From a virus: a DNA stretch of 64,000 nucleotides. The notes beneath the pieces were generated by a model. It saw only the letters and a program-made list of their open reading frames with translations. It did not search any database and was not told where the DNA came from. The position numbers and the translations under genes are program-made. Where the stretch lies: the IMG/VR virus record IMGVR_UViG_3300022888_000583; one strand, written 5' to 3'. Of the stretch, positions 8,621 to 60,354 are shown in pieces; the stretch's first letter is position 1, and each line of letters starts with the position of its first letter.

Positions 8621-8667
8621 TCATACCTGAAGATACAAGATTTAATTGTAAAAGTCAAGCGTTATTT

Positions 8668-13400: not shown

Positions 13401-13448
13401 TCATACCTGAAGATACAAGAAAAAAATGACAAAGTCAAGCGTTATTTT
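13401..13448 (-). promoter_or_regulatory. copy 2 of the promoter/leader motif
   Basis: Reads TCATACCTGAAGATACAAGAAAAAAATGACAAAGTCAAGCGTTATTTT. Confidence 0.55.
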
Positions 13449-14368: not shown

Positions 14369-14417
14369 TCATACCTGAAGATACAAGAAAAAGCCGATAA
14401 AGTCAAGCGGTATTATG
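14369..14417 (-). promoter_or_regulatory. copy 3 of the promoter/leader motif
   Basis: Shares CATACCTGAAGATACAAG...AAAGTCAAGCGG. Confidence 0.55.
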
Positions 14418-20300: not shown

Positions 20301-20347
20301 TTACCTGAAGATACAAGATTATATTGACAATGTCAAGCTTTATTTTA
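20301..20347 (-). promoter_or_regulatory. copy 4 of the promoter/leader motif
   Basis: Reads TACCTGAAGATACAAGATTATATTGACAATGTCAAGCTTTATTTTA. Confidence 0.55.
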
Positions 20348-25196: not shown

Positions 25197-25246
25197 ATAC
25201 CTGAAGATACAAGATTATTCTCACAAAGTCAAGCGTTATTTTAATT
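25197..25246 (-). promoter_or_regulatory. copy 5 of the promoter/leader motif
   Basis: ATACCTGAAGATACAAGATTATTCTCACAAAGTCAAGCGTTATTTTAA. Confidence 0.55.
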
Positions 25247-28690: not shown

Positions 28691-28728
28691 AATATACAAG
28701 ATTTAAATGTAAAAGTCAAGCGTTTTTT
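28691..28728 (-). promoter_or_regulatory. copy 6 (degenerate) of the promoter motif
   Basis: AATATACAAGATTTAAATGTAAAAGTCAAGCGTTTTTTT. Confidence 0.4.
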
Positions 28729-29198: not shown

Positions 29199-29244
29199 AC
29201 CTGAAGATACAAGATTATATTGACAAAGTCAAGCGTTATTTTCG
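29195..29244 (-). promoter_or_regulatory. copy 7 of the promoter/leader motif
   Basis: Full consensus copy. Confidence 0.55.
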
Positions 29245-29432: not shown

Positions 29433-29434
29433 AT

Positions 29435-33531: not shown

Positions 33532-33600
33532 TCATACCTGAAGATACAAGATTATATTGACAAAGTCAAGCGTTTTCTTTGATTATCTTCATTTATTTTT
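33532..33600 (-). promoter_or_regulatory. copy 8 of the promoter motif, with the extended upstream AAATAAATGAAGATAATCAAAGAAAACG element
   Basis: Full consensus; drives a ~300-nt non-coding leader into tRNA-Pro. Confidence 0.55.
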
Positions 33601-33630: not shown

Positions 33631-33690
33631 CATACCTGAAGATACAAGATAAAAATGACAAAGTCAAGCGTTTTCTTTGATTATCTTCAA
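33631..33690 (-). promoter_or_regulatory. copy 9 of the promoter motif (tandem with copy 8, ~100 nt apart)
   Basis: CATACCTGAAGATACAAGATAAAAATGACAAAGTCAAGCGTTTTCTTTGATTATCTTCA. Confidence 0.55.
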
Positions 33691-33794: not shown

Positions 33795-33838
33795 AATCAA
33801 GATACAAGATTATTTTCACAAAGTCAAGCGTTATTTTC
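33795..33838 (-). promoter_or_regulatory. copy 10 (partial) of the promoter motif
   Basis: AATCAAGATACAAGATTATTTTCACAAAGTCAAGCGTTATTTTC. Confidence 0.4.
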
Positions 33839-37209: not shown

Positions 37210-37284
37210 ATATTTTTCCTTTATTATTAGATGCGCGTAAGGGTGTGGGAGAGCATCCGCCCTCCCACTTTTTGATGAGAAATC

Positions 37285-38424
37285 TTATGATTTCATGAAC
37301 TGACCGAAGTCGTCATTTGTAAATAGGTTTTTACGACCCGGTTCATCTCCAGTATCAGCTGGGATGAATTTTTGTACAATCTGTTTTAGATATGTACGTT
37401 CACTGTCCGGACCTCCTTCAGCATCATACTGAGCATATACTGAAGCTTCGAATGCTTCCTCAAAAGTAAACCCGTCGTATAATAGACTTGCCAATTCCAC
37501 AGATGTACGAGTGGAAATGAATGAAGTCAATTTACCGGAGTCACTAAATACCTCGTTCCGAGTTTGGTGAACAACTTCTGCCACATTTTTCAATGTATCA
37601 GTATCCACTTCGTCGAATAGAAGGTGGAGTAAATCAAATTCCTGATTCTTATCCAATAAATCCATTTCGATTACTGTGAATCTGTCCATAAGAGCCCAGT
37701 CCATTGTCCGAGTGGATGTATATTCATTACCGATGTTGGCGGTAGCCACAAAGGTTACACCTTCAGCGACATTGATAACAGCTTGGTCATCACGTTCGTC
37801 TAAACGAATATAACGCTGTTCCATATCCAGAGGTGTCATAAGAATGTTCCATGCCTCGGGGTTTGCCCGAGAAAGTTCATCCAATAGGATAATTGCATCC
37901 TTGGTTTGAATTGCCCGAATAAATTCGGAGTCAGCAAAGTAAGTTCCCTGATCCTGCTTGTAGTGTACATTACCAATCAAAGCTGATCTGGGGTCTTGAG
38001 TAGCACCCAAGTTAAAATTGAAGAATGGTAATTCAAGAGCGGCCGCTAATGACTTAGCCGCTAATGTTTTTCCACAACCAGCTGGGCCGGTCAACATTAA
38101 ATTCTTACCACGTTTTGCGGTACGAACCAGATATTTCCATTTTAAATCCGAAATGAAAAGTCGGGTAGGTTTGATTGAAGGAGCGTTTGCAATAGCTTCC
38201 TTAATCTCAGCATTAAAATCGACCTTTAATTCGACCATGCTCATAGGTACGTGTACCCACATATTTTCATCAGCGTCAAATAGCTGAAGAGCGGTACCGT
38301 CATTGAAAGCGGACTTTCTCAAATCCAATTCAATATCAGATGTCCAATCCTTCCCAGCCGAATCTGTCGCCAAATACTTCTGCCCTGATTTTTCAATTGT
38401 TACGAATATTGTTTCATTACTCAT
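37285..38424 (-). CDS. MoxR-like AAA+ ATPase (AAA_5 family)
   Basis: Walker A LMLTGPAGCGKT; Walker B ILLDEL. Confidence 0.75.
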   Translation of the reverse strand: MSNETIFVTIEKSGQKYLATDSAGKDWTSDIELDLRKSAFNDGTALQLFDADENMWVHVPMSMVELKVDFNAEIKEAIANAPSIKPTRLFISDLKWKYLVRTAKRGKNLMLTGPAGCGKTLAAKSLAAALELPFFNFNLGATQDPRSALIGNVHYKQDQGTYFADSEFIRAIQTKDAIILLDELSRANPEAWNILMTPLDMEQRYIRLDERDDQAVINVAEGVTFVATANIGNEYTSTRTMDWALMDRFTVIEMDLLDKNQEFDLLHLLFDEVDTDTLKNVAEVVHQTRNEVFSDSGKLTSFISTRTSVELASLLYDGFTFEEAFEASVYAQYDAEGGPDSERTYLKQIVQKFIPADTGDEPGRKNLFTNDDFGQFMKS

Positions 38425-38453
38425 TTTTTATCCCTTATTTGTTAATTTTTTTC

Positions 38454-38500
38454 CATACCTGAAGATACAAGATTATTCTGACAAAGTCAAGCGTTATTTT
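38454..38500 (-). promoter_or_regulatory. copy 11 of the promoter motif
   Basis: Full consensus. Confidence 0.55.
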
Positions 38501-38513: not shown

Positions 38514-40877
38514 TTATTTTGAAGTCATTAAGAATTTTTTATTCATCACTTTCGAGACTTCGATTACAGATGTCACGTCAATAAACTGTGCATCTTTTCC
38601 ATACATTCTGCGGAAATCATTACCGTCACTTCCGTGACCGCTTCCACCGACATAGTATGAAATTATTTCCATACCCATACCACGTAATTTCTTAATGGCT
38701 GTTCTAGTTTGTTCAATTGCGTTTTGTCCGCCGTAATTAGCTCCTGGGAAGTAAGGCATTCCGTCTGAAAAATTCAAGAAGAATTGTTCACGTCCACCGT
38801 CAGCTTTAAATACTTCATTCATTGAAGCTTCATAACATAATCCTTCTGGAGTACAAGAACTAAGTGATACCGCCGACATTACTTTGATATAGCGTTTGAT
38901 TGAATCTTTGCGACTATCATATACGACTGCAACAAATGGTAGTTCACGACCATTAACAGGCTGCTGACCTCTAATTGTAATTACCACATCAATGTTTCCA
39001 CTCATTTTCGATGCTTGTACAATCGCTGATACAGATTTTAAGACCTGATCCCAATAGCTACTCATTGAGCCACTAGCGTCGATTGAAATTTGTAGAAGAG
39101 CGTCTTTATACTGTTCGACCTGAAATTGATCGAATACATTCGCGTTTCCACATCCCAGTTCAGCGATAAGGCGTCTGTTGATTTTGCCAGTATCCTTACG
39201 TGGATAGGTTGTAGTACGAGTCTCATTTCGGACTTTAAGTTTCTTGCCAAGTAATTTACCTAAGACAATACCCTTTTTAATATCTTCTTCAGAGCTTCCA
39301 CTGCTGTAATATGATGGAGTAAAACAGTTAAACAAATTACTGGTCAACATTGAATCGGTTACTTTGTTAACTACCATACATTCAAGCTTTTCATAACTGC
39401 CGTTGAATTCAATCTTAGGCATTTTCACAGCCGCGTCTGAAAGTACTTCTAATTTTTCTTGAGTCTCAGTATCCACGGATTCTTTTTCAATATTTCCATT
39501 GATAAAATCTGCTTGTCTTTTCAAAGCTTCAGCTAATTTTTCAGCTGCCTTTTTACCAAGTTTTCTATTGCCCCTTTTGCCGAGCATTTTCTTAATATTT
39601 TCTTTAATTTCGTCAGTAGTATCCTGTCCGTAATTTCCAGACTGATCTCCACTATCCCCATCTTTTTCATCATCGCCATCTTCGTCGGAATCTTCATCCC
39701 CACCAGAACCATCGGAGTCCTTTTCTTCCTCAGTATCTTCGTCCCCGCCTCCGCCGGAACCATCTTCGGAATCTTTATCTTCCCCGTCTTCTTTTTCTTC
39801 ATCTCCGCCAGAACCACCGCCATCTTCAGATTCTTCATCTTCATTTGAACCGTTGTTGGAACCCTCGCCGCCTTCGCCGCCCTCGTTCTCTTCTTTTTCG
39901 TCCTGATCCTTTTTATCTTTTTTCTCTTCTTCGTCATCTTCAGTTTGGTCATCCCAGTTATTACCGGGTTGTGGAGAACCTTCTCCATCACCATCACCGA
40001 GTTGACATTCACCGTCACCCTTGCTGGGCTTTCCATCTTTGCTGGATTTTCCTTTGTTACCCTTTTTCTCTTTTTGCTTTTTCAAAGGATCGATATATTC
40101 CAAAATGGTATCGAAAATTGAAATGGCCACCTGCAGTACTTCTTCAGTACTGATAAGACGACCGATATTTGGTAAGTCAATAAGATTGTAAATTTCCTGT
40201 AAGCCAGCCAAGTCGGTTGGTTGTACATATGGATTTACAATGTTGGTAATATAAAACATATACGATTCGAAATTTTCCTTACCACGAGCCTGACCACTTC
40301 TAATCATATCAGAAATTTCTTCAGAGTTCCAGTAACGGTCATATAGTGAATCGTAGTATCCAGTGTATCCCGGAGAAGTACGATAGATGAAACTATCAAT
40401 TCTACGGTCTTCAACGATATTGGTTAATATCATTAATGCTTGGATGATTTGTTCATCCACAAATTTTAATTTACGAGCCTTAATAACCACATCCCGCATT
40501 TTACTATTTAGGTGTGTAGTAACCATACTAGGAAGTCTTTTGAGTAAATCAAAATCACTTAATAAAATATGTGAACCCTCATGGAGAGCCAAACCTACAA
40601 CCGAGTCAAATGTTTCGGGGTTAATTTTAGATGTAATAAAAACGTCTTCACCAGTGGTGGCAGACATTCCTTGATTGTTGTTGAAAAACTTCACGGGAAT
40701 ATTTTTCCCAGATACAATCCTTACAAAGTTTCCAATAGAGCGTTGGTATTTTGACAATTCGAAAATGTCAATTTCATCACCTTCACCGAGTTTTCGTTCC
40801 CAGTAATCGCCCAGCCAGAAGTTAGAAGTTTTAGTATCTTTTTTTCCGTCTTTTAATTTTGGTGCAAATAATCCCAT
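38514..40877 (-). CDS. VWA-domain protein (MIDAS DASGSMSS) with an N-terminal HExxH motif (LALHEGSHIL) and a ~170-aa acidic Asp/Glu/Gly low-complexity linker; partner of the MoxR ATPase
   Basis: 787 aa; DxSGS at the C-terminal VWA; HEGSH near the N-terminus; purine-rich repeats at 39600-40060. Confidence 0.65.
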   Translation of the reverse strand: MGLFAPKLKDGKKDTKTSNFWLGDYWERKLGEGDEIDIFELSKYQRSIGNFVRIVSGKNIPVKFFNNNQGMSATTGEDVFITSKINPETFDSVVGLALHEGSHILLSDFDLLKRLPSMVTTHLNSKMRDVVIKARKLKFVDEQIIQALMILTNIVEDRRIDSFIYRTSPGYTGYYDSLYDRYWNSEEISDMIRSGQARGKENFESYMFYITNIVNPYVQPTDLAGLQEIYNLIDLPNIGRLISTEEVLQVAISIFDTILEYIDPLKKQKEKKGNKGKSSKDGKPSKGDGECQLGDGDGEGSPQPGNNWDDQTEDDEEEKKDKKDQDEKEENEGGEGGEGSNNGSNEDEESEDGGGSGGDEEKEDGEDKDSEDGSGGGGDEDTEEEKDSDGSGGDEDSDEDGDDEKDGDSGDQSGNYGQDTTDEIKENIKKMLGKRGNRKLGKKAAEKLAEALKRQADFINGNIEKESVDTETQEKLEVLSDAAVKMPKIEFNGSYEKLECMVVNKVTDSMLTSNLFNCFTPSYYSSGSSEEDIKKGIVLGKLLGKKLKVRNETRTTTYPRKDTGKINRRLIAELGCGNANVFDQFQVEQYKDALLQISIDASGSMSSYWDQVLKSVSAIVQASKMSGNIDVVITIRGQQPVNGRELPFVAVVYDSRKDSIKRYIKVMSAVSLSSCTPEGLCYEASMNEVFKADGGREQFFLNFSDGMPYFPGANYGGQNAIEQTRTAIKKLRGMGMEIISYYVGGSGHGSDGNDFRRMYGKDAQFIDVTSVIEVSKVMNKKFLMTSK

Positions 40878-40894: not shown

Positions 40895-40944
40895 TCATAC
40901 CTGAAGATACAAGATATTTATGACAAAGTCAAGCGTTATTTTAC
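40895..40944 (-). promoter_or_regulatory. copy 12 of the promoter motif
   Basis: Full consensus. Confidence 0.55.
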
Positions 40945-41915
40945 GCTTTTGCTTTCTTTTTTTCATATCTGATTTTAATTTTTCCGTATGTTGTGTTAAT
41001 CTTATTTACCTGACGAGGTGTAATAAAATTACGACTATTCAGTTGTCTCTTGATGGAAACAATTGTGTCGTATGATGTGTACTGACCAGCTATAGGCCTG
41101 CCAATTAGATTGGCGTCCACGTATTCAATCATTCCAATAAGTTCATCGACCTTTGAATTGATTTTGAGGAGAGCAGATTCTCTAGCCAAGATATTCTCAG
41201 GACTGTTCTGTTCTACTATACGATTGATAATAACTTCCATTTTGGGAGAAATGTTACGACCCTGTATCAGAGCGTTAAACATATCCCTATCAAAAGGTTT
41301 GGCTGTACCATTATCCACAATACCCTTAAGTACTGAAATCTGTTCCCTGTAAGTAACAAAATTGTACTTAACTTTTTCAATGGATTCACGAAGATATGAA
41401 GCGAAGCTATCAGAGATAACCTTGCCATGTACGATGTAATCGTATCCACTTCTAATGACGCCTCCGCCATAACCAGCTTCCATAATATCTTTAATGATGG
41501 GAAGCTCCTCAGCGAATTCGACTAAATTCTTCTCACGGGTCTTACGAGCCTTAGCGGCCTTAGCAAGTTCCCTGACATTCCTACTGATGTTCATAACCAG
41601 TGGATCGTTTTGTCCAAGAATCAAAGCCAGACAATCAATGCCCACTTTGTAATTGGTAATCCCGTTCATATTCGATGCTTCAATAACTGAAACATACCTG
41701 AGATGTGATCCACAAAAATCACATTTGGGTGTTAAATCCAAATCATTGTCACCCTTACGTTCTACGATTTTTCCATTGGCTTCCATAACAGAATCCCTGA
41801 ATTGTGAATCAAATACAAAAACGCCAGTCATATCATTTTCTTCAACGATATGCCTGACGTCCAATTTCCATCTTTTGCTTATTTCTTTTTTCAATTTATT
41901 CTCTTTTCTTATCAT
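40941..41915 (-). CDS. hypothetical protein (324 aa) with a CxxC zinc-ribbon segment
   Basis: ORF directly after motif copy 13. Confidence 0.5.
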   Translation of the reverse strand: MIRKENKLKKEISKRWKLDVRHIVEENDMTGVFVFDSQFRDSVMEANGKIVERKGDNDLDLTPKCDFCGSHLRYVSVIEASNMNGITNYKVGIDCLALILGQNDPLVMNISRNVRELAKAAKARKTREKNLVEFAEELPIIKDIMEAGYGGGVIRSGYDYIVHGKVISDSFASYLRESIEKVKYNFVTYREQISVLKGIVDNGTAKPFDRDMFNALIQGRNISPKMEVIINRIVEQNSPENILARESALLKINSKVDELIGMIEYVDANLIGRPIAGQYTSYDTIVSIKRQLNSRNFITPRQVNKINTTYGKIKIRYEKKKAKA

Positions 41916-41960
41916 ACCTGAAGATACAAGATTATATTGACAAAGTCAAGCGTTTTCTTT
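41912..41960 (-). promoter_or_regulatory. copy 13 of the promoter motif
   Basis: Full consensus. Confidence 0.55.
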
Positions 41961-47244: not shown

Positions 47245-48027
47245 CTATTTGTCCTCGGTTATAATTAAGTCGTGGTAATATTCTTCATAGAAATCTACCA
47301 TCTGTTCACTAAAGAAATTCTTATCAGCATTCTCTGGTAGTCGTTTGTTTAACGCCACCTGAACCATTTCCTTCTGCAGGATGTCATCCAACGCCTTAGC
47401 GTGGGACTCGAATTCAGTTCCATTTTTGAATTCCTTACCGGCTCTGATATTTATCAACAAGTCCAAGTCTCGGCCTGAAAACTTAGTAGTCAGAGTTCCT
47501 TTGGTCATCATCTCAATTCCATTGATTAACATTCTGATAGTATGCATAGCATATTTAGAATCATACGCGTCATCCTTAGGACCATATTTATATTGTGGTC
47601 TGATTTGACCATGGCCAGCTCTATTGGAATTCCTAATCATTTGAGACCTAGCGAATCCGGCATAAGCCTTTCCCGACCTTTGGGTAATTAATTTATCCCT
47701 ATGGACAAGAAAATATTCATTGAATAGTGGATGTATCACTTTAATCATGTCATCCATAAATAGCAATTCAAAAATATTTGGGTTGGAATTCAATGCAAGT
47801 GAAATAAACTTATGCAGTGAATGCAACGCAATATCTTCTAACTTGTAACTTACCGATTCTCGTTTATTAAATCCATAAATCACATCTCTGGTATTTGCAA
47901 ATACTCCCCTGTAATCATAATCTGATTCTGGGGTGAAAGTACCATGCGCACGAGAACCATCCAATACTAAATATAGCAGATTCGGTTCGTCCTCTTGGAT
48001 CATGTTTACAATTTTTCGTTGTGCCAT
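47245..48027 (-). CDS. Pol-beta-like nucleotidyltransferase (GS...D.D motif)
   Basis: LYLVLDGSRAHGTFTPESDYDYRGVF. Confidence 0.5.
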   Translation of the reverse strand: MAQRKIVNMIQEDEPNLLYLVLDGSRAHGTFTPESDYDYRGVFANTRDVIYGFNKRESVSYKLEDIALHSLHKFISLALNSNPNIFELLFMDDMIKVIHPLFNEYFLVHRDKLITQRSGKAYAGFARSQMIRNSNRAGHGQIRPQYKYGPKDDAYDSKYAMHTIRMLINGIEMMTKGTLTTKFSGRDLDLLINIRAGKEFKNGTEFESHAKALDDILQKEMVQVALNKRLPENADKNFFSEQMVDFYEEYYHDLIITEDK

Positions 48028-48045: not shown

Positions 48046-48093
48046 TACCCTGAAGATACAAGATAATATCCACAAAGTCAAGCGTTTTCTTTA
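48046..48093 (-). promoter_or_regulatory. copy 14 of the promoter motif
   Basis: ACCCTGAAGATACAAGATAATATCCACAAAGTCAAGCGTTTTCTT. Confidence 0.5.
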
Positions 48094-49952: not shown

Positions 49953-50332
49953 TATTGATCCTCTGTTTTTTCGTTTACTATTTTTTCAATTTTTTGAGAC
50001 GCATACTCTTCACCATTTTTGATTATAGCATGTGTCGTTTTACTAATAAAACTTACCATTTCCAATATCTGTGCTTCAGAATAAATTTCTTTAGCTTTAT
50101 ATGTGGCGTTTATATTCAACAAAGTTTCGGCCATATCACCCATCAGATGGGCAAGTGACAATAATTTTTTCTCAGTACCATACAGTGCCATATTTAGTGT
50201 CGCTTGATTTTTCTTCAACAGTCCGATAGTTTGTGCCATTTCAATTTTATCAGCTTTAAGGATTTCATTCATATCCTTGTAATCGTCTGCCAAATTTTTA
50301 TATTCAGTTTCTTTAGATTCAAACCAGCTCAT
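49952..50332 (-). CDS. coiled-coil hypothetical protein (126 aa)
   Basis: ORF. Confidence 0.4.
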   Translation of the reverse strand: MSWFESKETEYKNLADDYKDMNEILKADKIEMAQTIGLLKKNQATLNMALYGTEKKLLSLAHLMGDMAETLLNINATYKAKEIYSEAQILEMVSFISKTTHAIIKNGEEYASQKIEKIVNEKTEDQ

Positions 50333-50572
50333 ATACAGTCTCCATTTTATTAATAAGTATCAAGTTCCAAGTCGAAACGATACTATTATTTAGGGCTTTT
50401 TTCATACACCGGTTTGATTGATCCCCGCATACCGTGGGTAGCTTGGACAAAGTTGTTGAATTTTGTCTGAGCTTCCTTATCATTATTAGCGGATAATTGA
50501 ACTTGAGAGCCCTGACCATTAACCAAATTGTACGAAATTTTGTACAAATACTTTTTCATTTTATATTCCTTT

Positions 50573-51244
50573 TTAGTCGTCATATGATAAAATGTCATCT
50601 GAGCTATTATCTTCTTCAGTGACCATTTCTACTTTTGGTGTGTCATCGACCGATTCAATTTTTATGGAAGTAATCGTTTTCCATACCTTTCCAAACCGAA
50701 ATTGCCCATTCATTTTTTTATATGTATGGTAGCAATACCAACCGGCTAGTATGTTAATAGGTGGTGTAATCCAATTCCCAATTAATACATTCAGAACAAC
50801 ACAAAATATATTAAACCACATTAAACCAAATATCCATTTGGCCCCTTTATTTTCCAGCTTCTTCAAATCCGTATCAATTTTTTGTGTCAATGAGCCGAGT
50901 GGACTTGGTGGAGCACAAGGTACTTGTGGCCAAATACAATCCGCGTATGGTATTGGTTTCATGTGTACTGGCAATGAACTTCTATAATCGTCAAATGTCT
51001 TAAACCATGTCCAAGCGTTTGACCCTTGAATTTTAATTCTAGATTCTGCTAGAGCCTTATCATGGGTTATAATGGTAACATCAGTTGCGGTGCCTATATT
51101 TATGGCATCCTTTGCAACGAAGCAATCTATCAATAGAATAGTTGTTACTCCTTGAAGATTTAATTTTTCTATATGTTTATCCCTGAGCCTAACTGTAGTT
51201 AATCTGCTTTGGGGCATGTCTATATTTATTACATATGGTATCAT
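50573..51244 (-). CDS. hypothetical protein with C-terminal TM region (start taken at internal MIPYV, abutting the upstream gene)
   Basis: The N-terminus of track ORF 50573..51430 overlaps ORF 51246..51659 in another frame. Confidence 0.4.
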   Translation of the reverse strand: MIPYVINIDMPQSRLTTVRLRDKHIEKLNLQGVTTILLIDCFVAKDAINIGTATDVTIITHDKALAESRIKIQGSNAWTWFKTFDDYRSSLPVHMKPIPYADCIWPQVPCAPPSPLGSLTQKIDTDLKKLENKGAKWIFGLMWFNIFCVVLNVLIGNWITPPINILAGWYCYHTYKKMNGQFRFGKVWKTITSIKIESVDDTPKVEMVTEEDNSSDDILSYDD

Positions 51245-51245
51245 T

Positions 51246-51659
51246 TTAGAAATTGTTATCGTAAAATTTGATTGCAGTATCACCCATGCTAAATCTACGC
51301 CCGTGCTTATCAAACCAATGTTTCTTAGCCTTCGACCATCTGATTGTTTCCAATCGATTGTTTTCATTGGATGTGATTTTCCATTCCTGAGAATAGTTAT
51401 CAAAGTGTCCAACAAATCCACCGAGTGCAACCAACTTAGCTGGTTTAATCATTTCAGAATCCATCGCTCGAATTATTACTTTACCAGGAGTTCGTACTTC
51501 TACAACTTCCCAAGGTTCCACATCTGTATATCCACAGAAGTTAGCAAATTCTTTTATTTCGTGGCGCTTTTCATTTTCGATGTCACGTTCAATTTTCTGT
51601 TCGATTCTCATCGCTTCCATTTTTGCAGTGTGTTCTTCACGTGTCATTTTTATAGTCAT
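51246..51659 (-). CDS. hypothetical protein (137 aa)
   Basis: Track ORF. Confidence 0.45.
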   Translation of the reverse strand: MTIKMTREEHTAKMEAMRIEQKIERDIENEKRHEIKEFANFCGYTDVEPWEVVEVRTPGKVIIRAMDSEMIKPAKLVALGGFVGHFDNYSQEWKITSNENNRLETIRWSKAKKHWFDKHGRRFSMGDTAIKFYDNNF

Positions 51660-51660
51660 T

Positions 51661-51882
51661 TTAATTTTCCCTTGCTTCTACAATTAATTCGTATGGCATA
51701 ATTCCACCATCCAATAAATTTAAATTGGTTGGTCTAACTGCGTATATACAATCCCGATCAGTTAAATACATTTCTCGTAAAAATGTTATTTCCTCTGGTC
51801 TATCCATGCTGGTCAAATGGTAATAAGTACCACGTGACGTTGCTATTAAAAATAAATTCATTTCTTTTCCTTTTCTTATCAT
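51661..51882 (-). CDS. hypothetical protein (73 aa)
   Basis: ORF directly after motif copy 15. Confidence 0.4.
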   Translation of the reverse strand: MIRKGKEMNLFLIATSRGTYYHLTSMDRPEEITFLREMYLTDRDCIYAVRPTNLNLLDGGIMPYELIVEAREN

Positions 51883-51927
51883 ACCTGAAGATACAAGAAA
51901 AAAATGACAAAGTCAAGCGTTATTTTC
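51879..51927 (-). promoter_or_regulatory. copy 15 of the promoter motif
   Basis: Full consensus. Confidence 0.55.
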
Positions 51928-52243
51928 GCGAAATGGAAACTTTTATATACAAATAATTGTACTGACATTCACTATTATGTACTGGATAACACGATATTCT
52001 ATGACCGTCAACTTTTACTGGACCGTCACGCCAATGGTCATAATTATTTACCAATAACCATGCAATTCTAAACGAGTCAAATGTCCAATGTGAATTCGCT
52101 TGTGGTAATGGAATCTTTATATGGAAATCGCCGTCTAACAATTCTTCCAATTCGGCCAATCTATGATGCACGTCATTGGGCAATTGGTCATTCGCGTATT
52201 CAACCATCTGTTCTACTATTTTTTGTTTATCATTTTCTATCAT
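51920..52243 (-). CDS. hypothetical protein (107 aa)
   Basis: ORF after motif copy 16. Confidence 0.4.
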   Translation of the reverse strand: MIENDKQKIVEQMVEYANDQLPNDVHHRLAELEELLDGDFHIKIPLPQANSHWTFDSFRIAWLLVNNYDHWRDGPVKVDGHRISCYPVHNSECQYNYLYIKVSISRK

Positions 52244-52288
52244 ACCCCAAGATACAAGAAAAAAAGCACAATGTCAAGCGTTTTTTTA
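52241..52288 (-). promoter_or_regulatory. copy 16 (variant) of the promoter motif; the leftward arm of the divergent promoter region
   Basis: CATACCCCAAGATACAAGAAAAAAAGCACAATGTCAAGCGTTTTTTT. Confidence 0.5.
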
Positions 52289-52344
52289 GCCTTTTTCGCT
52301 TGACTTCTTCCTATTTATCTTGTATCTTGATACATGGAAAAGGT

Positions 52345-52413
52345 AAAATAAATGAAAATAAGCGAAGAAATCGCTTGACTTTGTCAATATAATCTTGTAT
52401 CTTCAGGTATGAG
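52345..52413 (+). promoter_or_regulatory. copy 17 of the promoter motif, plus orientation, with the extended upstream element; the rightward arm of the divergent region
   Basis: AAATAAATGAAAATAAGCGAAGAAATCGCTTGACTTTGTCAATATAATCTTGTATCTTCAGGTATGA. Confidence 0.55.
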
Positions 52414-52428
52414 AGAAAAGGAATAATA

Positions 52429-52704
52429 ATGAAAAAATTAACAATATACAATACAGAGAATTTCAACCCAGTCGGTCCTGGTACGGAATTAATAGTAGAT
52501 GAGGATACCTATCAATACGAGGTTATCGATGTGTTACGCAGTTATTTTGCAACATCCGATAGACTAAATGAATCGTATAAAGCGGTAGGAGTCCCAGTTC
52601 AATCCCACGTGGTGGCCATTGTATGGCAAGACGATGGGGTATTTCAAAAAGAATTAGACAATTGGATTAAGGTTCAATTGAGAGAATACAACCAAGGAAA
52701 ATAA
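52429..52704 (+). CDS. hypothetical protein (91 aa)
   Basis: ORF. Confidence 0.45.
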   Translation: MKKLTIYNTENFNPVGPGTELIVDEDTYQYEVIDVLRSYFATSDRLNESYKAVGVPVQSHVVAIVWQDDGVFQKELDNWIKVQLREYNQGK

Positions 52705-52705
52705 A

Positions 52706-53398
52706 ATGTCAATTTATGTATGTGGTGATGTCCACGGAACAAACGATATCAGGAAACTAAATTCCCGCAATTGGCCGGAGAAAAAAGTACTTACCAAAAG
52801 TGATACTCTTATTCAGCTTGGTGATTTTGGTCATCTGTGGACTAACGTCCCCGATAGACGAGAAAAATGGTGGATTAAATGGTTTGATGAACAACCATAT
52901 ACTACAGCCATTGTACCTGGTAATCATGAGAATTACCATAGAATTAATGCACTTCCCGAAGAGGAAAAATGGGGCGGCACTGTAAAGCGTGTTTCCAAAT
53001 CCATATTCATTCTGAATCGTGGAGAGATTTATACCATTGAGGGCAAGACATTCTTCGCTTTTGGTGGAGCACAATCTACTGATAAAGAATGGCGTGTAAT
53101 CGACGTGTCTTGGTGGGAAGATGAACTTCCTTCAAAGGCGGAAGAAGATCATGGACTGGATAGTCTGAATGCGGTTGGTAATGAGGTTGACTTCATAGTA
53201 ACCCATACAGCTCCTGCAGATGTTGTCGGGCGTTGTCTCGGCCGCTGGGATAGGTACAACGATCCAGTTTCAAATTATCTGTCATTCATTGAGGAAACTA
53301 CTGAATATGGAGACTGGCATTTTGGTCACCTCCACGAAGATAAATCATTTGGAAAATTCCATTGTCACTATAACGCTAAACCTAAGAAGATTGTATAA
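52706..53398 (+). CDS. Ser/Thr protein phosphatase-like metallophosphoesterase
   Basis: Motifs GDVHG, GDFGH and GNHEN. Confidence 0.7.
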   Translation: MSIYVCGDVHGTNDIRKLNSRNWPEKKVLTKSDTLIQLGDFGHLWTNVPDRREKWWIKWFDEQPYTTAIVPGNHENYHRINALPEEEKWGGTVKRVSKSIFILNRGEIYTIEGKTFFAFGGAQSTDKEWRVIDVSWWEDELPSKAEEDHGLDSLNAVGNEVDFIVTHTAPADVVGRCLGRWDRYNDPVSNYLSFIEETTEYGDWHFGHLHEDKSFGKFHCHYNAKPKKIV

Positions 53399-53703
53399 TG
53401 GGATTATTTGTTGAATATGTAAAATGGGGCATATCCTTTGGAATGGGCCCCGATGATGAAGATGAAATGGTTGATAAAATACAAGCCGTTGTCGATGTTA
53501 AGGGGTTGGAAGATATAGGTTGGGAATTGGACAATGTAATGGATTATTGTGAAGATGTAAAAATTGATGGTTCATACAATTATGGATTCAGTATTTATTT
53601 TCACATCAGGGGTGGAGAAGGTGGAGCTGTACAACTTATGGATGAATTTGAAGAGCACGCCAAAAATGCAGAAAAAGAAATCAGAAAGTATTTCGGTATC
53701 TAA
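53398..53703 (+). CDS. hypothetical protein (101 aa)
   Basis: ORF. Confidence 0.4.
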   Translation: MGLFVEYVKWGISFGMGPDDEDEMVDKIQAVVDVKGLEDIGWELDNVMDYCEDVKIDGSYNYGFSIYFHIRGGEGGAVQLMDEFEEHAKNAEKEIRKYFGI

Positions 53704-53719
53704 CATGGGAGATTTGAGA

Positions 53720-54064
53720 ATGAAAGCCAAATTCTTTACTGGCAAATATAAACATAAAGTAATGGTCGTGGATTACGCTTCCAGTAGAAATGTATTTATT
53801 ATACAATCTACTGGTGAAGAAATACCAACGGATCAGGGAACGATATTGCTATATGGTGAGGATACTAGAATTGTATATGACAAGACTGGTCAGACTTATT
53901 TACAAGAATTAGATCATGGAATGTGGGTAACTCCGATTCCAGTTGATTTTCCAGATACATGGGAACCAGAATCAAAGCATGGTAGGATTGTATTGGAACA
54001 TACTGCCGAAGAAGGCTTTATGAGTTTATTAAAAGATTGTGGATTTGCAGGATTTACCGGATGA
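53720..54064 (+). CDS. hypothetical protein (~114 aa; start at MKAKFF after a GGGAG Shine-Dalgarno)
   Basis: The track ORF over-extends upstream. Confidence 0.4.
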   Translation: MKAKFFTGKYKHKVMVVDYASSRNVFIIQSTGEEIPTDQGTILLYGEDTRIVYDKTGQTYLQELDHGMWVTPIPVDFPDTWEPESKHGRIVLEHTAEEGFMSLLKDCGFAGFTG

Positions 54065-54219
54065 TAGGGACTGTGTTATTAATGGCACCACCGGTCGGAA
54101 CCAAATTGCTAATAGGACAAATTATTGGAATTTCATTTTTGATAATAGTACCACTTGGAATGTGCTGGATGTTATGGACTGTCATAAACAGTAAACACAA
54201 ATCACCACTTGAAAAATAA
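54061..54219 (+). CDS. small membrane protein (52 aa)
   Basis: ATGA overlap with the upstream stop. Confidence 0.3.
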   Translation: MIGTVLLMAPPVGTKLLIGQIIGISFLIIVPLGMCWMLWTVINSKHKSPLEK

Positions 54220-54280
54220 ATGAAAATAAGCGAAAATAACGCTTGACTTTGTCAATATAATCTTGTATATTGACCTATGA
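54214..54280 (+). promoter_or_regulatory. copy 18 of the promoter motif (plus orientation)
   Basis: AAATAAATGAAAATAAGCGAAAATAACGCTTGACTTTGTCAATATAATCTTGTATATTGA. Confidence 0.55.
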
Positions 54281-54320
54281 TAAAAAAGATAGAATTTACA
54301 AATAAAATAGAGGAAAAATT

Positions 54321-55049
54321 ATGTTAAATAAACGTAAAATTGAACTTCAAATTGCAGCTCCTAAAATTAAGCGGAAGGAAATTGCCGACGCTATGGAAGA
54401 TACTTCCAATGTGATTAATCGGAATGGTTACTTCAAGCTTAATTCCAAGCGCCACGATGTCAAAGTTGGCATCCGCCGTAAGGATGGGAAATTCAAGTGG
54501 AAATTTGAAGACGGTGTAAAAGAAGCCGTAACTGAATTTCTTGGGGACATGGATATCACATATGAAGATGTGAAGTTTACAATGCCGGCGACGACATTGA
54601 GTTCCATTAAATATGGTACTGATTTTATTCTTGAAAAAATCTCTGAAGATCAGGAACAGGAATATCGTGACTTTGTAAAGAACAATGCTTTATTCGCAAT
54701 CGTTCAGGACATTCAAAAGTATTCACGAATTGTATTGGGCAAACGATACAATCTTGATATGGACTTGGTTCTAATGGGTGAAAAAATTGACAGTATTAAT
54801 GACATTCTCACAGATCGATTTATCAAAATGTGGAAACAAAATATGGGAGACAATGAGCGTAAGGCTTTGGAACTCACCATGTCATTATTTAACACTGCTA
54901 CTGAAAATGTAGAACATACATTTGAGATTTCAGTTAATAACTCAAGTCCTTCTACTTACATTTATGGGGTAGATGATAATAAAAAATCAAGTGATAAAAA
55001 AGCCGTTGTATTTGGTGACGTATCACAATGGATTACGAGGTCAATTTAA
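54321..55049 (+). CDS. hypothetical protein (242 aa)
   Basis: ORF. Confidence 0.5.
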   Translation: MLNKRKIELQIAAPKIKRKEIADAMEDTSNVINRNGYFKLNSKRHDVKVGIRRKDGKFKWKFEDGVKEAVTEFLGDMDITYEDVKFTMPATTLSSIKYGTDFILEKISEDQEQEYRDFVKNNALFAIVQDIQKYSRIVLGKRYNLDMDLVLMGEKIDSINDILTDRFIKMWKQNMGDNERKALELTMSLFNTATENVEHTFEISVNNSSPSTYIYGVDDNKKSSDKKAVVFGDVSQWITRSI

Positions 55050-55304
55050 GTGTCGCAATTTAAATTTAAGGTATTCAATGAGAGAAAACCTGAACAACAA
55101 AAGCCCCTATGGGCACCTCACCAACTAATTTCAGCCGCTATTGCTACAATAGTGGCTGGTATTATGATCATCATATCATTATTTACCATGATATCCACTT
55201 CAGCTTTATTTCCAGGATTGTATGGAATAGCTATGGGGTGGGTAATCAGTAAGTTGCCATTTTGGTTATATGGCAATTTCATAGTGCCTACACCTAATGA
55301 CTAA
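55050..55304 (+). CDS. small membrane protein (84 aa; GTG start)
   Basis: Two TM helices. Confidence 0.35.
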   Translation: MSQFKFKVFNERKPEQQKPLWAPHQLISAAIATIVAGIMIIISLFTMISTSALFPGLYGIAMGWVISKLPFWLYGNFIVPTPND

Positions 55305-55707
55305 AAATGATTGGGTCGATATTATACGGAAATCACCAGATGATGATTTAGATGATCTTATCGACAACATGGTTAAGTCCAATGAACTAACAAGAGATTT
55401 GGGATCACGGTTGGCCGACACCTTGAAGGTAGTTCGGTTAGCTCTCAAGAAATACTTCCCAAAACAATTTGATTTTTCTGTGATAAAACGATCTGTCAAT
55501 GCACAGGAAATTCTCATAGAAATAGAAATGGTAGAAGTTCCCAAAGGATTTGATACCAATTCAGAGATAGGCAGATTCAATGTAATGAATATGTCCAAAG
55601 TATTTAATGAAGTATATAAATACATCGGTTGGAATGAGCAGTATCGAGTTGAATATACCATCAAGGAAAAGAAACCTATAATTATGGTAAAAATGATATT
55701 AAGATAG
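55297..55707 (+). CDS. hypothetical protein (136 aa)
   Basis: ORF. Confidence 0.45.
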   Translation: MTKNDWVDIIRKSPDDDLDDLIDNMVKSNELTRDLGSRLADTLKVVRLALKKYFPKQFDFSVIKRSVNAQEILIEIEMVEVPKGFDTNSEIGRFNVMNMSKVFNEVYKYIGWNEQYRVEYTIKEKKPIIMVKMILR

Positions 55708-55723
55708 TATAAGGAATTAAAAT

Positions 55724-56011
55724 ATGACCCCAGGATTATGGGTATTCATTATTGCAGTTACAATAATGACCGGAAATAGAGCAATTGAAAAATCGGTGGA
55801 TTATCGAAAACGCCGAAAGCATAGTGGTGGAATTGATAGGTACGATTTAATAGCTACCGAGAAAATGATATTGGAACGTGTGGCGTTAATAACTGATAAA
55901 GTAAATGAAATGGATGTGCAGTTTGCTGACAGATTAAATGAAATAGAAAAATCTATCCCAAATACCATAAAGGATTATCACATGGAAAACATCATGGAAC
56001 AGGACGACTAA
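55724..56011 (+). CDS. hypothetical protein (95 aa) ending ...NIMEQDD
   Basis: Its C-terminal tail is shared with 60364..60675. Confidence 0.4.
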   Translation: MTPGLWVFIIAVTIMTGNRAIEKSVDYRKRRKHSGGIDRYDLIATEKMILERVALITDKVNEMDVQFADRLNEIEKSIPNTIKDYHMENIMEQDD

Positions 56012-58140: not shown

Positions 58141-58419
58141 ATGAATGAACATAAGGATTCTATGCAGGACGACGAACGTAAACAATTAAACGAACAGGTA
58201 GGGCACATGACCCATAAAGAAGTTGATGTTATGGAGAACACCCCTGAACTGTTTGAATATTTGTACGGGAATATCACAATGGGGACATTCAGTAAATTGA
58301 AGAAATTAAAAAGGTTATCAAAAAGTCCAAACGAAAACGAAGCATTCAGAGCATACAGAAAATGTCTGAAATTGTGTGAGCAATACAACGTGGAGTTTGA
58401 CAAAATACCAACAGGATAA
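58141..58419 (+). CDS. hypothetical protein (92 aa)
   Basis: ORF. Confidence 0.4.
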   Translation: MNEHKDSMQDDERKQLNEQVGHMTHKEVDVMENTPELFEYLYGNITMGTFSKLKKLKRLSKSPNENEAFRAYRKCLKLCEQYNVEFDKIPTG

Positions 58420-58423
58420 AATA

Positions 58424-58813
58424 ATGAGAACACCAATATTATCATTGACTAAAAAAGATTTCCATATCAGATGGTTTTCAGGTTCTGGTGCCGGTGGCCA
58501 GCATCGTAACAAGTCGGATAACTTGTGTGAAATTACTCACATTGAAAGTGGGATCAAACAAAAATGCACCGCCCACAAATCAAGAGAACAGAATAAGAAG
58601 GAAGCATTCAAGAATCTATGTGCCAAGCCAGAGTTCAAATTATGGTTGGCAAAAAAGACTGGAACGTATGTTGAAGTCAAACGAGATATGGATGTTGTTA
58701 GAAATTACAACTATGGCCGCAATGAAGTGAAAGACCATAGGACAGGCAAGAAATACAAACTAGACAAAATCCTAAAAGGTGAACTAGACCAAATTAGGAA
58801 AGACTACAGATAA
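58424..58813 (+). CDS. arfB: GGQ-motif peptidyl-tRNA hydrolase domain protein (ArfB/YaeJ-like ribosome rescue factor)
   Basis: FSGSGAGGQHRNK is the GGQ motif of class-I release factors and ArfB; ~129 aa; basic C-terminal tail. Confidence 0.6.
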   Translation: MRTPILSLTKKDFHIRWFSGSGAGGQHRNKSDNLCEITHIESGIKQKCTAHKSREQNKKEAFKNLCAKPEFKLWLAKKTGTYVEVKRDMDVVRNYNYGRNEVKDHRTGKKYKLDKILKGELDQIRKDYR

Positions 58814-58822
58814 GGAAATGTT

Positions 58823-59101
58823 ATGAAATTATTACCAAACAATGATCGGGTATTGGTGCGAGTAGAGCTACCAGAGGAAGTTACAGAATCGGGATTAATC
58901 ATTCCACAAAGTGCACAGGAAAATGTTTCCCGTGGCATCATTGAGGAACTAGGCAAAGATGTACATAGTAGCGATGGTGAAGACGTATTACAAAAAGGCG
59001 TCACCGTGGTATATGAAAAATTCAAAGGAACAGAAGTCGAACACGAAGGTACAAAATATATTGTATTGCGTGAAGAAGACATTGCAGCAGTACTAAGGTA
59101 A
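58823..59101 (+). CDS. groS: co-chaperonin GroES (Cpn10)
   Basis: 92 aa; LPNNDRVLVRVELPEEVTESGLIIP...GTKYIVLREEDIAAVL fits the GroES pattern. Confidence 0.7.
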   Translation: MKLLPNNDRVLVRVELPEEVTESGLIIPQSAQENVSRGIIEELGKDVHSSDGEDVLQKGVTVVYEKFKGTEVEHEGTKYIVLREEDIAAVLR

Positions 59102-60056: not shown

Positions 60057-60090
60057 AGCTTGACTTTGTCAATATAATCTTGTAGATTAA
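60050..60090 (+). promoter_or_regulatory. copy 19 (partial) of the promoter motif, plus orientation
   Basis: AAAGCTTGACTTTGTCAATATAATCTTGTAGATTAAAAGG. Confidence 0.5.
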
Positions 60091-60102: not shown

Positions 60103-60354
60103 ATGAACGATAAATGGGATTACACCAAAATTAAATATTACATTGATTGCGAGGGTCGTATATGGTCTGGCCCATTTCCAGCAGTTAATAATTACCATTA
60201 TAAAACTGGAGACGTATTTGCCAGTTCAGATGTACCAGCTTATTGTGCAGAAATTACACCATTACAAGCCGCAGAATTAATGCGAGACTTGGATGTTATA
60301 TTAGAAGAGGATAATGAAGATGAATATCAAAGTGACGATAACATGCCATTCTAG
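60103..60354 (+). CDS. hypothetical protein (83 aa)
   Basis: ORF. Confidence 0.4.
   Translation: MNDKWDYTKIKYYIDCEGRIWSGPFPAVNNYHYKTGDVFASSDVPAYCAEITPLQAAELMRDLDVILEEDNEDEYQSDDNMPF

What the first reader, a model, noticed from the sequence alone, without database searches (positions are those of the whole stretch)
52241..52413. Conserved ~48-65 nt promoter/leader motif in at least 19 copies, with a divergent pair at the strand switch
The element AAATAAATGAA..AACGCTTGACTTTGTCAATATAATCTTGTATCTTCAGGTATGA recurs almost unchanged upstream of genes on both strands (see features). It is usually followed within 5-15 nt by a Shine-Dalgarno sequence and the start codon. It contains the palindromic core TTGACAAAGTCAA and a TATAAT hexamer, but TTGACT and TATAAT are only 7 nt apart, so it is not a sigma-70 promoter. 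The most likely reading is a promoter for a phage-encoded or phage-modified polymerase plus a shared 5' leader. Two copies face away from each other at 52241-52413, exactly where gene orientation switches. Copies 8-10 flank a tRNA and a 300-nt non-coding leader.
Basis: seen in the sequence. Interest (0 to 1): 0.75.

Follow-up and report, generated by a model that had tools for sequence, protein, structure and literature searches.

The report
Repeated sigma-70-type early promoters of phage
A roughly 75-base element repeated 20 times in this large uncultured phage is a family of near-identical promoters of the ordinary bacterial (sigma-70) type, each with a short ribosome-binding leader, that drive its tRNA, GOLLD RNA and accessory genes; this is real but expected for a big lytic phage.

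Summary
There are 20 copies (16 on the minus strand, 4 on the plus strand; 0.27 expected by chance). All are intergenic and all point the same way as the downstream gene. Three copies, not two, sit at the strand switch: 52249-52277(-), 52300-52328(+) and 52375-52403(+).

The TATAAT lies in a variable part of the spacer and occurs in only 7 of 20 copies. The conserved architecture is TTGAC(T/A), a 17-nt spacer, then TATCTT. That is canonical sigma-70 geometry, and A-11 and T-7 never vary. An A-tract, UP-like region lies upstream. Downstream come GTATGA near the predicted start site, a Shine-Dalgarno sequence and the ATG.

Seven positionally orthologous copies in diverged metagenomic relatives show where selection acts. 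Identity is 95% at -35, 97% at -29..-25, 90% at -18..-13 and 95% at -10. It is only 43-48% in the mid-spacer and the discriminator.

No consensus RNA structure was found. No sigma or RNA polymerase gene was found in about 84 kb. The motif is absent from the neighbouring baseplate genes.

Best reading: early promoters read by the host polymerase, organised as promoter-gene cassettes comparable to T4 early promoters and PeSLs. This is a new member of a known kind, of low to moderate interest.

The parts
8630..8658 (-). Promoter core (-35 TTGACT, 17-nt spacer, -10 TATCTT). The ATG of the NAD synthase gene (7790-8608) lies 21 nt downstream. The GroEL stop codon lies 9 nt upstream.
13410..13438 (-). 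Promoter core. A 12-bp terminator hairpin with a T-run ends 22 nt upstream. The ATG of ORF 13018-13383 lies 26 nt downstream.
14378..14406 (-). Promoter core in front of the R2K ATP-grasp gene (13479-14357). Promoter, gene and terminator form a cassette that is absent from relative L050.
20308..20336 (-). Promoter core (-35 TTGACA). A Shine-Dalgarno AAGGAG and a TTG start of ORF 19935-20282 follow.
25204..25232 (-). Promoter core inside the tRNA-rich segment. A short ORF follows.
28691..28719 (-). Promoter core (-10 variant TATATT), 433 nt upstream of the Rfam GOLLD match (27785-28257). It is followed by a GACAC/GTGTC hairpin and a T-run. Relative L076 has no copy at the orthologous site.
29204..29232 (-). 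Promoter core upstream of small ORFs and tRNA-Arg (28829-28904).
33541..33569 (-). Promoter core. It is followed by a conserved hairpin with a T-run and about 350 nt of non-coding sequence before tRNA-Pro (33119-33192).
33639..33667 (-). Promoter core, 31 nt after tRNA-Leu. A 7-bp hairpin follows.
33799..33827 (-). Promoter core. An 11-bp terminator lies upstream. tRNA-Leu (33699-33774) starts 24 nt after the -10 hexamer.
38462..38490 (-). Promoter core upstream of the MoxR-type AAA+ ATPase gene (37285-38424).
40904..40932 (-). Promoter core upstream of the 787-aa gene (38514-40877).
41921..41949 (-). Promoter core upstream of the 324-aa gene (40941-41915). The called start codon is the ATG inside the motif's GTATGA.
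48053..48081 (-). Promoter core upstream of the RlaP-type nucleotidyltransferase gene (47245-48027).
51888..51916 (-). Promoter core upstream of ORF 51661-51861.
52249..52277 (-). Leftward member of the divergent pair (-35 TTGACA). ORF 51920-52243 starts at the motif's own ATG and has no Shine-Dalgarno sequence.
52300..52328 (+). Rightward member of the divergent pair and the most divergent copy. Its upstream region is T-rich rather than A-rich and its spacer is atypical. Its -35 hexamer is 22 nt from that of the leftward copy.
52375..52403 (+). Canonical copy in tandem, 75 nt downstream of the previous one. The ATG of ORF 52429-52704 lies 25 nt downstream. The full element spans 52345-52427.
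54243..54271 (+). Promoter core (-10 variant TATATT) upstream of ORF 54321-55049.
60060..60088 (+). Promoter core (-10 variant TAGATT) upstream of ORF 60103-60354. This is the last copy; none occurs in the next 14 kb.

Best explanation
Each copy is a strong promoter of the sigma-70 family, most likely read by the host's primary-sigma RNA polymerase holoenzyme straight after infection, that is, an 'early' or pre-replicative class.

Anatomy, numbered with TATCTT as -12..-7:
- Phased A-tracts lie at about -65, -54 and -45 (AAAATAAAT ... AAAATAACGC). These are UP-element-like and would be contacted by the alpha C-terminal domains.
- The -35 hexamer is TTGAC(T/A).
- The spacer is 17 bp. Its two ends are constrained (TTGTC at -29..-25 and (A/T)TCTTG at -18..-13) and its middle is free.
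- The -10 hexamer is TATCTT.
- The discriminator at -6..-4 is free.
- The start-site region is GTATGA. Transcription probably starts at the A, 6 nt after the hexamer, or at the G, 8 nt after it.
- In most copies a leader of about 15-30 nt follows, carrying AAGAAAAGGA-type Shine-Dalgarno sequences and the start codon.

The 20 copies divide a roughly 51-kb region (8.6-60.1 kb) into short operons. These encode 41 tRNAs, GOLLD RNA, NAD-salvage genes, chaperone and protease genes, RNA-repair genes, anti-restriction genes and many small ORFs. A back-to-back pair plus a tandem copy fires the two divergent arms at 52.2-52.4 kb. The repeats also act as portable promoter-gene cassettes whose gain and loss differs between relatives.

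Shown here: copy number, placement, orientation, geometry, the conservation footprint and the regional restriction. Inferred: which polymerase reads them, the start site, the timing and the strength.
For: Number and placement.
- 20 copies against 0.27 expected.
- All copies are intergenic and co-oriented. In 13 of 20 the downstream start codon lies 5-49 nt past the -10 hexamer.
- The two halves of the element are never found apart.

Conserved hexamers.
- Over 55 unique copies from the window and relatives, the -35 hexamer is TTGACT 48, TTGACA 7 and CTGACT 1. The -10 hexamer is TATCTT 46, TATATT 8 and TAGATT 1.
- Variation is therefore confined to -10 and -9, the positions least important for sigma-70 (established knowledge).

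Selection footprint. Seven positional orthologue pairs were compared with relatives whose alignable DNA is 70-94% identical, mostly 73-79%. Identity by segment:
- -35 hexamer: 95%
- -29..-25: 97%
- -24..-19: 48%
- -18..-13: 90%
- -10 hexamer: 95%
- -6..-4: 43%
- -3..+3: 86%
- flanking sequence: 43-65%

Other support.
- The generic sigma-70 scan scores the sites at 9-10 of 12 with a 17-nt spacer.
- The motif is absent from 10 kb on either side of the window, including baseplate (late) genes that are co-oriented just to the left.
- No sigma or RNA polymerase Pfam hit appears on genes from -10 kb to +74 kb.
- The downstream genes are typical early or accessory functions: S-AdoMet lyase, Mom, HSP20, RNA ligase, NAD salvage and tRNAs.
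- Precedent: T4 early promoters are UP/-35/-10 'uber' promoters with additional consensus regions (PMC2988021). PeSLs are about 50 repeated sigma-70-like early promoter cassettes per genome (PMC2839356).
Against: - No transcript 5' ends, timing data or host are available. The host polymerase is inferred from geometry alone.
- The -10 hexamer is uniformly the non-consensus TATCTT rather than TATAAT.
- There is no TGn extended -10 element. The invariant G is at -13, not -14.
- Three blocks outside the classical elements are as conserved as the hexamers: TTGTC at -29..-25, TCTTG at -18..-13 and GTATGA at the start site. Sigma-70 recognition alone does not predict this. It could reflect a phage-specific factor or recent copying.
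- Only about 84 kb of a larger genome could be inspected for sigma or RNA polymerase genes.
Confidence: 0.72

Rival explanations
1. The element is a distinct promoter class read by a phage-encoded sigma-70-family factor, or by host polymerase altered by an injected or early phage protein (of the sigma-appropriation or ADP-ribosylation kind). The extra conserved blocks (CGC at -38..-36, TTGTC, TCTTG, TATCTT, GTATGA) would be its specificity code.
For: The non-consensus TATCTT and the extra blocks are as conserved as the hexamers across diverged relatives. There is no TGn element. T4 shows that phage modification of polymerase (Alt) can favour the phage's own early promoters (PMC2988021).
Against: The -35 hexamer is the housekeeping consensus at the canonical 17-bp spacing. 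No sigma or RNA polymerase Pfam domain was found on any called gene across about 84 kb. The only -10 variation is at the positions sigma-70 tolerates.
Confidence: 0.15
2. The promoters also carry an operator, which does not exclude the main reading. The inverted repeat TTGAC-N3-GTCAA overlaps the -35 hexamer, or the 10-nt-spaced GTAT...GTAT repeat spans -13 to +2. Either could bind a phage regulator that shuts off or tunes all 20 promoters together.
For: TTGTC at -29..-25 is 97% conserved in orthologous pairs although sigma-70 does not need it. GTATGA at the start site is 86% conserved. The palindrome arms are intact in 7 of 20 copies, and 4-bp arms in 12 of 20.
Against: - Many copies and relatives break the outer palindrome position (GTCG, GTGA, TACA) with no compensating change, since the -35 arm is fixed.
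- No free-standing palindromes exist outside promoters.
- No candidate DNA-binding protein was identified.
- The same pattern could come from polymerase-spacer contacts or from shared ancestry of the copies.
Confidence: 0.25
3. The repeat's main role is as a substrate for homologous recombination, a mobile regulatory cassette of the PeSL kind that shuffles accessory genes. Its sequence uniformity would be maintained by gene conversion rather than by polymerase contacts.
For: - A unit running exactly from promoter to promoter (window 13443-14419: promoter, ATP-grasp gene, terminator) is absent from relative L050, which in turn has a different extra ORF with its own promoter.
- The GOLLD promoter copy is missing at the orthologous site in L076.
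- Metagenome scaffolds break at motif copies.
- Precedent: PMC2839356 and PMC4122927.
Against: - Only one clean cassette indel was found.
- Conservation is patterned (two unconstrained gaps), not uniform as pure gene conversion would give.
- Only 2 of 20 copies have the terminator stem-loop that defines PeSLs.
- This is a secondary consequence of being a repeated promoter, not an alternative to it.
Confidence: 0.3
4. The element acts at the RNA level, for example as a structured leader, a processing site or a small RNA, and not as a promoter.
For: About 20 nt downstream of the predicted start site are conserved. Three copies are followed by small hairpins.
Against: RNAalifold finds no consensus structure (energy 0.0) over the first 30 of 54 unique copies. 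Single-sequence z-scores average about -1.4. The -35 hairpin is only -2.5 kcal/mol. Most of the conservation lies upstream of any plausible transcript start and follows the bipartite -35/-10 pattern.
Confidence: 0.03

Closest known systems
T4 early promoters (Pe) and other strong early promoters of lytic phages read by host sigma-70 or sigma-A (T5, SPO1, T7 A1-A3)
   Same: There are many near-identical copies per genome. They combine an UP-like A/T-rich upstream region with -35 and -10 elements at 17 bp. Extra consensus positions lie beyond the classical elements. They sit in front of early and accessory genes and tRNAs (PMC2988021).
   Different: The -10 hexamer is TATCTT rather than TATAAT. 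There is no TGn element. The -35 hexamer is the pure housekeeping TTGACT (the T4 -35 consensus differs, from my own knowledge). The host and the timing are unknown.
PeSLs (promoter-early stem-loops) of T4-type phages RB49, phi1, PST and nt-1
   Same: They are repeated sigma-70-like promoters with an AT-rich upstream region and a Shine-Dalgarno sequence and ATG at the 3' end. They are concentrated in accessory-gene regions upstream of small ORFs. A cassette indel here is bounded by copies (PMC2839356).
   Different: The defining stable stem-loop terminator is missing from most copies: 2 of 20 have an upstream terminator, and the built-in 5-bp inverted repeat is only -2.5 kcal/mol. By its baseplate protein the phage groups with Microcystis phage Mel-JY01, Flavobacterium phage immuto and LR756508, not with T4. 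Mini-circles were not tested.
Promoters of phage-encoded RNA polymerases (T7-like single-subunit; phiKZ/AR9-like multisubunit)
   Same: They are highly uniform motifs repeated upstream of phage genes.
   Different: From my own knowledge, those promoters are single contiguous blocks around the start site with no -35 element. Here the conservation is bipartite at sigma-70 spacing with an unconstrained mid-spacer, and no polymerase gene was seen in about 84 kb.

Membership tests
Sigma-70-family -35/-10 promoter | A -35 hexamer close to TTGACA | tested here: met
   TTGACT in 48, TTGACA in 7 and CTGACT in 1 of the unique copies. All 20 window copies have TTGAC.
Sigma-70-family -35/-10 promoter | A spacer of 17 +/- 1 bp between the hexamers | tested here: met
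   The spacer is exactly 17 nt in all 20 window copies and in all related copies.
Sigma-70-family -35/-10 promoter | A -10 hexamer of the form TAnnnT, with A-11 and T-7 invariant | tested here: met
   TATCTT in 46, TATATT in 8 and TAGATT in 1. T-12, A-11, T-8 and T-7 never vary.
Sigma-70-family -35/-10 promoter | Located upstream of genes and co-oriented with them | tested here: met
   20 of 20 cores are intergenic (18.5% of the window is intergenic) and 20 of 20 are co-oriented.
Sigma-70-family -35/-10 promoter | Primary transcript 5' ends about 7 nt downstream of the -10 hexamer, and holoenzyme-dependent transcription | not testable with these tools
   No transcriptome, host or biochemistry is available.
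Extended -10 (TGn) promoter | TG at -15/-14, one base upstream of the -10 hexamer | tested here: not met
   The sequence is CTTG directly abutting TATCTT, so the G is at -13.
UP element | An A/T-rich block at about -40 to -60 upstream of the -35 hexamer | tested here: met
   AAAATAACGC at -45..-36 is present in nearly all copies, and AAAATAAAT-type tracts lie near -54 and -65 in many. Binding by the alpha C-terminal domain is not testable.
PeSL (T4-type promoter-early stem-loop cassette) | A sigma-70-like early promoter with an AT-rich upstream region, ending in a Shine-Dalgarno sequence and ATG | tested here: met
   definition from PMC2839356
PeSL (T4-type promoter-early stem-loop cassette) | A stable stem-loop acting as terminator within or next to the promoter | tested here: not met
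   Only 2 of 20 window copies have an upstream terminator. The TTGAC/GTCAA hairpin is -2.5 kcal/mol. Several relatives do show T-runs upstream.
PeSL (T4-type promoter-early stem-loop cassette) | Indels or replacements between related phages that are bounded by copies | tested here: inconclusive
   One clean promoter-to-promoter indel (window 13443-14419 versus L050) and one presence/absence of a copy (28691 versus L076) were found. This is too few for statistics.
Phage-RNA-polymerase promoter (T7-like or phiKZ-like) | A single contiguous consensus around the start site with no -35 element, and a phage-encoded polymerase | tested here: not met
   The conservation is bipartite with an unconstrained -24..-19 segment. 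No polymerase domain was found on genes from -10 kb to +74 kb. The rest of the genome was not seen.

The most novel reading that the evidence does not exclude
The blocks conserved beyond what sigma-70 needs are CGC at -38..-36, TTGTC at -29..-25, TCTTG at -18..-13, the fixed non-consensus TATCTT, and GTATGA at the start site. On the most novel reading these form the recognition code of a phage-specific factor: an injected or early sigma-like protein, an appropriator, or a global early-shut-off repressor using the -35-overlapping palindrome. That would make this a private promoter class in a widespread uncultured myovirus lineage. The same repeats would serve as recombination modules that shuffle tRNA, GOLLD and accessory-gene cassettes.
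Probability: 0.15. Interest if true: 0.5.

Novelty: new member of a known kind. Interest (0 to 1): 0.25.

Why it matters
The element gives a transcription map for the accessory half of an abundant, uncultured large phage whose individual proteins recur with identical sequence in 93 to 183 blocks of the metagenome collection. It shows that the phage's 41 tRNAs, its GOLLD RNA and its translation, proteostasis and NAD-salvage genes lie in a roughly 51-kb region cut into short operons by one promoter class. One copy points at GOLLD, 433 nt upstream of the Rfam match. The canonical TTGACT/17 bp geometry and the strong Shine-Dalgarno use argue for a host with classical sigma-70 and Shine-Dalgarno usage, and against Bacteroidota-type promoters. 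The element also offers a compact set of natural promoter variants for testing. Beyond that it is an expected feature of large lytic phages.

Tried and rejected
- Megablast of 50000-56000 against 50,697 phage records found no match.
- tblastn with the 787-aa protein, GroEL, RNA ligase and a baseplate protein found only distant relatives: Mel-JY01, Flavobacterium phage immuto and LR756508.
- A 42-kb stretch of Mel-JY01 lacks the motif and has different repeats of its own.
- Host search failed. The GMP reductase protein gave no confirmed relative in 185,579 genomes. The motif pattern gave only 13 single hits near chance level. These were mostly unrelated loci (repeat hits from a Streptococcus locus and from a shared Clostridia-type locus) and there were no multi-copy contigs.
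- A literature search for the literal sequence returned only primers. Searches for GOLLD with tmRNA and phage, and for Mel-JY01, returned nothing relevant.
- The RNA-structure reading was rejected.
- Pairing the spacer TATAAT with an upstream -35 was rejected. The hexamer 17 nt upstream would be AAATAA, and TATAAT is present in only 7 of 20 copies.
- A second -10 at TATGAN was rejected. No -35 sits at the right distance and the sixth position is not a conserved T.
- A conserved leaderless ORF starting at the motif ATG was rejected as a general feature. In-frame stops follow in several copies (8630, 40904, 52375, 38462), although two called genes do start there.

Full report
**1. The observation**

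A degenerate search for TTGAC-N14-CTTGTATCTT with up to 2 mismatches finds 20 sites, against 0.27 expected from dinucleotide-preserving shuffles. The narrower palindrome-plus-TATAAT pattern finds only 12. An independent repeat finder returns the same 16 minus-strand and 4 plus-strand copies as the largest repeat family in the window apart from tRNA similarities.

I built nhmmer models from the upstream half alone (-60..-24) and the downstream half alone (-18..+20). Each recovers only these same sites, so the halves never occur apart and there are no weaker extra copies at E<=1.

All 20 cores lie in the 18.5% of the window not covered by called ORFs, tRNAs, tmRNA or GOLLD. All are co-oriented with the downstream gene. 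In 13 copies the downstream start codon lies 5-49 nt after the -10 hexamer.

The strand switch holds three copies, not two. A back-to-back pair sits at 52249-52277(-) and 52300-52328(+), with 22 nt between the -35 hexamers. A tandem canonical copy follows at 52375-52403(+).

**2. Anatomy**

The invariant parts are TTGAC(T/A) and, exactly 17 nt later, TATCTT. That is the canonical sigma-70 geometry. The generic scanner also lists these sites with a 17-nt spacer and 9-10 of 12 matches. Generic sigma-70-like sites as a whole are not enriched (87 found against 84.6 expected), so the signal lies in the specific family and not in that scan.

Upstream lie A-tracts: AAAATAACGC at -45..-36, and AAAATAAAT-type tracts near -54 and -65 in many copies. 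Downstream come three free bases and then GTATGA. Most copies then have a purine-rich Shine-Dalgarno sequence of the AAGAAAAGGA type and the start codon.

There is no TGn extended -10 element, because the invariant G is at -13.

**3. Relatives and the selection footprint**

The same element occurs in multiple copies on many IMG/VR contigs. Single hits on other contigs are at chance level.

Over 55 unique copies from the window and relatives, found through either half-model, the hexamers are:
- -35: TTGACT 48, TTGACA 7, CTGACT 1.
- -10: TATCTT 46, TATATT 8, TAGATT 1.

T-12, A-11, T-8 and T-7 never vary. Variation is restricted to the two positions that sigma-70 tolerates best (established knowledge).

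Two relatives, L050 and L076, are syntenic with the window. Their alignable DNA is 70-94% identical to it, mostly 73-79%. Seven promoter copies sit at orthologous positions. Identity by segment is as follows:

| Segment | Identity |
|---|---|
| -35 hexamer | 95% |
| -29..-25 | 97% |
| -24..-19 | 48% |
| -18..-13 | 90% |
| -10 hexamer | 95% |
| -6..-4 | 43% |
| -3..+3 | 86% |
| Flanks | 43-65% |

This is a bipartite promoter footprint with three additional constrained blocks.

**4. Context**

The window belongs to a large uncultured myovirus.
- It carries 41 tRNA genes, a tmRNA and a GOLLD RNA.
- It encodes GroEL and GroES, ClpP, HSP20, peptide deformylase, an RF-1-domain protein, NAD-salvage enzymes, GMP reductase, an Rnl1-type RNA ligase, KptA, RlaP, Mom, S-AdoMet lyase and many small ORFs.
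- The exact proteins recur in 93-183 blocks of the metagenome collection.
- There is no close cultured relative. The baseplate protein is 47% identical to that of Microcystis phage Mel-JY01 and 43% to that of Flavobacterium phage immuto.
- A 42-kb stretch of Mel-JY01 does not carry this motif.

The motif is confined to window positions 8630-60088. It is absent from the first 8.6 kb and the last 3.9 kb of the window, and from a further 10 kb on each side. The left flank encodes baseplate wedge proteins on the same strand.

No called gene from about -10 kb to +74 kb has a sigma-factor or RNA-polymerase Pfam hit.

**5. Mechanism**

The best-supported reading is a family of strong promoters read by the host primary-sigma holoenzyme at the start of infection. 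Each is fused to a short leader with a Shine-Dalgarno sequence. Together they cut the accessory, tRNA and non-coding-RNA region into operons of 0.1-6 kb and fire two divergent arms from 52.2-52.4 kb.

One copy, at 28691-28719, points at GOLLD, 433 nt upstream of the Rfam match. Another starts 24 nt before tRNA-Leu.

T4 early promoters are the precedent. They are UP/-35/TGn/-10 'uber' promoters whose alignments show additional consensus regions (PMC2988021).

What polymerase reads these sites, where transcription starts and when they fire are all inferred.

**6. Rivals**

- **A phage-specific sigma or a modified polymerase.** This is suggested by the fixed non-consensus TATCTT and the extra blocks. 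The housekeeping -35 hexamer, the 17-bp spacing and the lack of any sigma or polymerase gene in 84 kb argue against it. I give it about 0.15.
- **An operator superimposed on the promoter.** Candidates are the palindrome TTGAC-N3-GTCAA or the GTAT-N6-GTAT repeat. This is compatible with the conservation but untested. Many copies break the palindrome.
- **An RNA-level element.** This is rejected. There is no consensus structure, and the hairpin is only -2.5 kcal/mol.

**7. Cassette behaviour**

Window 13443-14419 is one promoter copy, the R2K ATP-grasp gene and a terminator. It is missing from L050 exactly from promoter to promoter. L050 in turn has another ORF with its own copy. L076 has no copy at the site orthologous to the GOLLD promoter.

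This resembles the PeSL cassettes of T4-type phages (PMC2839356 and PMC4122927). However, only 2 of 20 copies have the terminator stem-loop that defines PeSLs. The element therefore works like a PeSL, but I do not file it as one.

**8. Host**

The host remains unknown. Shine-Dalgarno-like tetramers precede 74% of called starts against a 15% background. That figure is partly circular, because my start-codon choice favoured Shine-Dalgarno sequences. Together with the TTGACT -35 hexamer, it argues for a host with classical sigma-70 and Shine-Dalgarno usage.

**9. Verdict**

The 'not sigma-70' inference is wrong. It is a new member of a known kind, a repeated early promoter family of a large lytic phage. 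Interest is 0.25.

Noticed in passing
window 27785-28257 (-), probably extending up to about 28685: There is a full-length Rfam GOLLD RNA match (190 bits, gathering score 150) with a tRNA-Arg(tct)-like element embedded at 28107-28180. A motif copy at 28691-28719 lies 433 nt upstream and points toward it, followed by a GACAC/GTGTC hairpin and a T-run. Relative L076 has GOLLD but no promoter copy at that site.
   Followed up: partly
window 4236-4594 (-): The phage encodes a tmRNA (Rfam 96.9 bits; ARAGORN tag peptide GTNYAYPVAA). It lies outside the motif-bearing region.
   Followed up: no
window 16585-33774 (-): There are 41 tRNA genes covering most amino acids. They are interleaved with small ORFs and 7 motif copies. 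This is a very large tRNA complement for a phage.
   Followed up: partly
window 33200-33510 (-): About 300 nt of non-coding sequence lie between promoter copy 33541 and tRNA-Pro. There is no Rfam hit at gathering score. It may be an unclassified non-coding RNA or a long tRNA leader.
   Followed up: no
window 33510-33535 and 33605-33630 (-); L076 near 12430-12460: Short hairpins lie directly after promoter copies 33541 (AGAAAC/GTTTCT plus a T-run) and 33639 (GAGAAAC/GTTTCTC). The first is almost identical in the diverged relative L076, although its flanks differ. They may be attenuators, 5' stabilisers or very short RNAs.
   Followed up: partly
window 51920-52243 (-) and 40941-41915 (-): Two ORFs are called from the ATG embedded in the motif's GTATGA, at the predicted transcription start. 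For 51920-52243 there is no Shine-Dalgarno sequence and no alternative nearby start, so a leaderless mRNA is possible.
   Followed up: partly
window about 5500-21000, 36100-38500 and 58400-59100: A host-like translation, proteostasis and metabolism set sits under these promoters. It includes peptide deformylase, an RF-1-domain (ArfB-like) protein, GroEL and GroES, ClpP, HSP20, Band_7, KptA/Tpt1, and NAD salvage genes (NAPRTase, NAD synthase, nicotinamidase-like, NUDIX). Some members (for example GMP reductase at 5561-6655) lie just outside the motif region.
   Followed up: partly
L139 (Microcystis phage Mel-JY01, record 127360-169642): The nearest cultured relative lacks the TTGAC-N17-TATCTT element. 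It has its own repeated 12-mers, for example AACAACCTAACAGGA (5-6 copies) and CTATATACTGAAAC (4-5 copies), which may be its own promoter class.
   Followed up: no
L120 near 11963-12064; L117 and L118 near 20120-20280: Metagenome scaffolds of the same phage carry gaps or breaks at or next to motif copies and in the tRNA repeats. Assemblies of this phage are therefore fragmented by the repeat.
   Followed up: partly
L128, L129, L135 (Clostridia, Christensenellaceae and Bacteroidaceae-binned MAG contigs): These three contigs appear to share a locus: a TTGACATTGT-N9-TCTTGTATATTATA promoter-like site, a leader of roughly 100 nt and a gene for a secreted-looking protein. It is unrelated to the phage and probably a convergent sigma-A promoter.
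   Followed up: no
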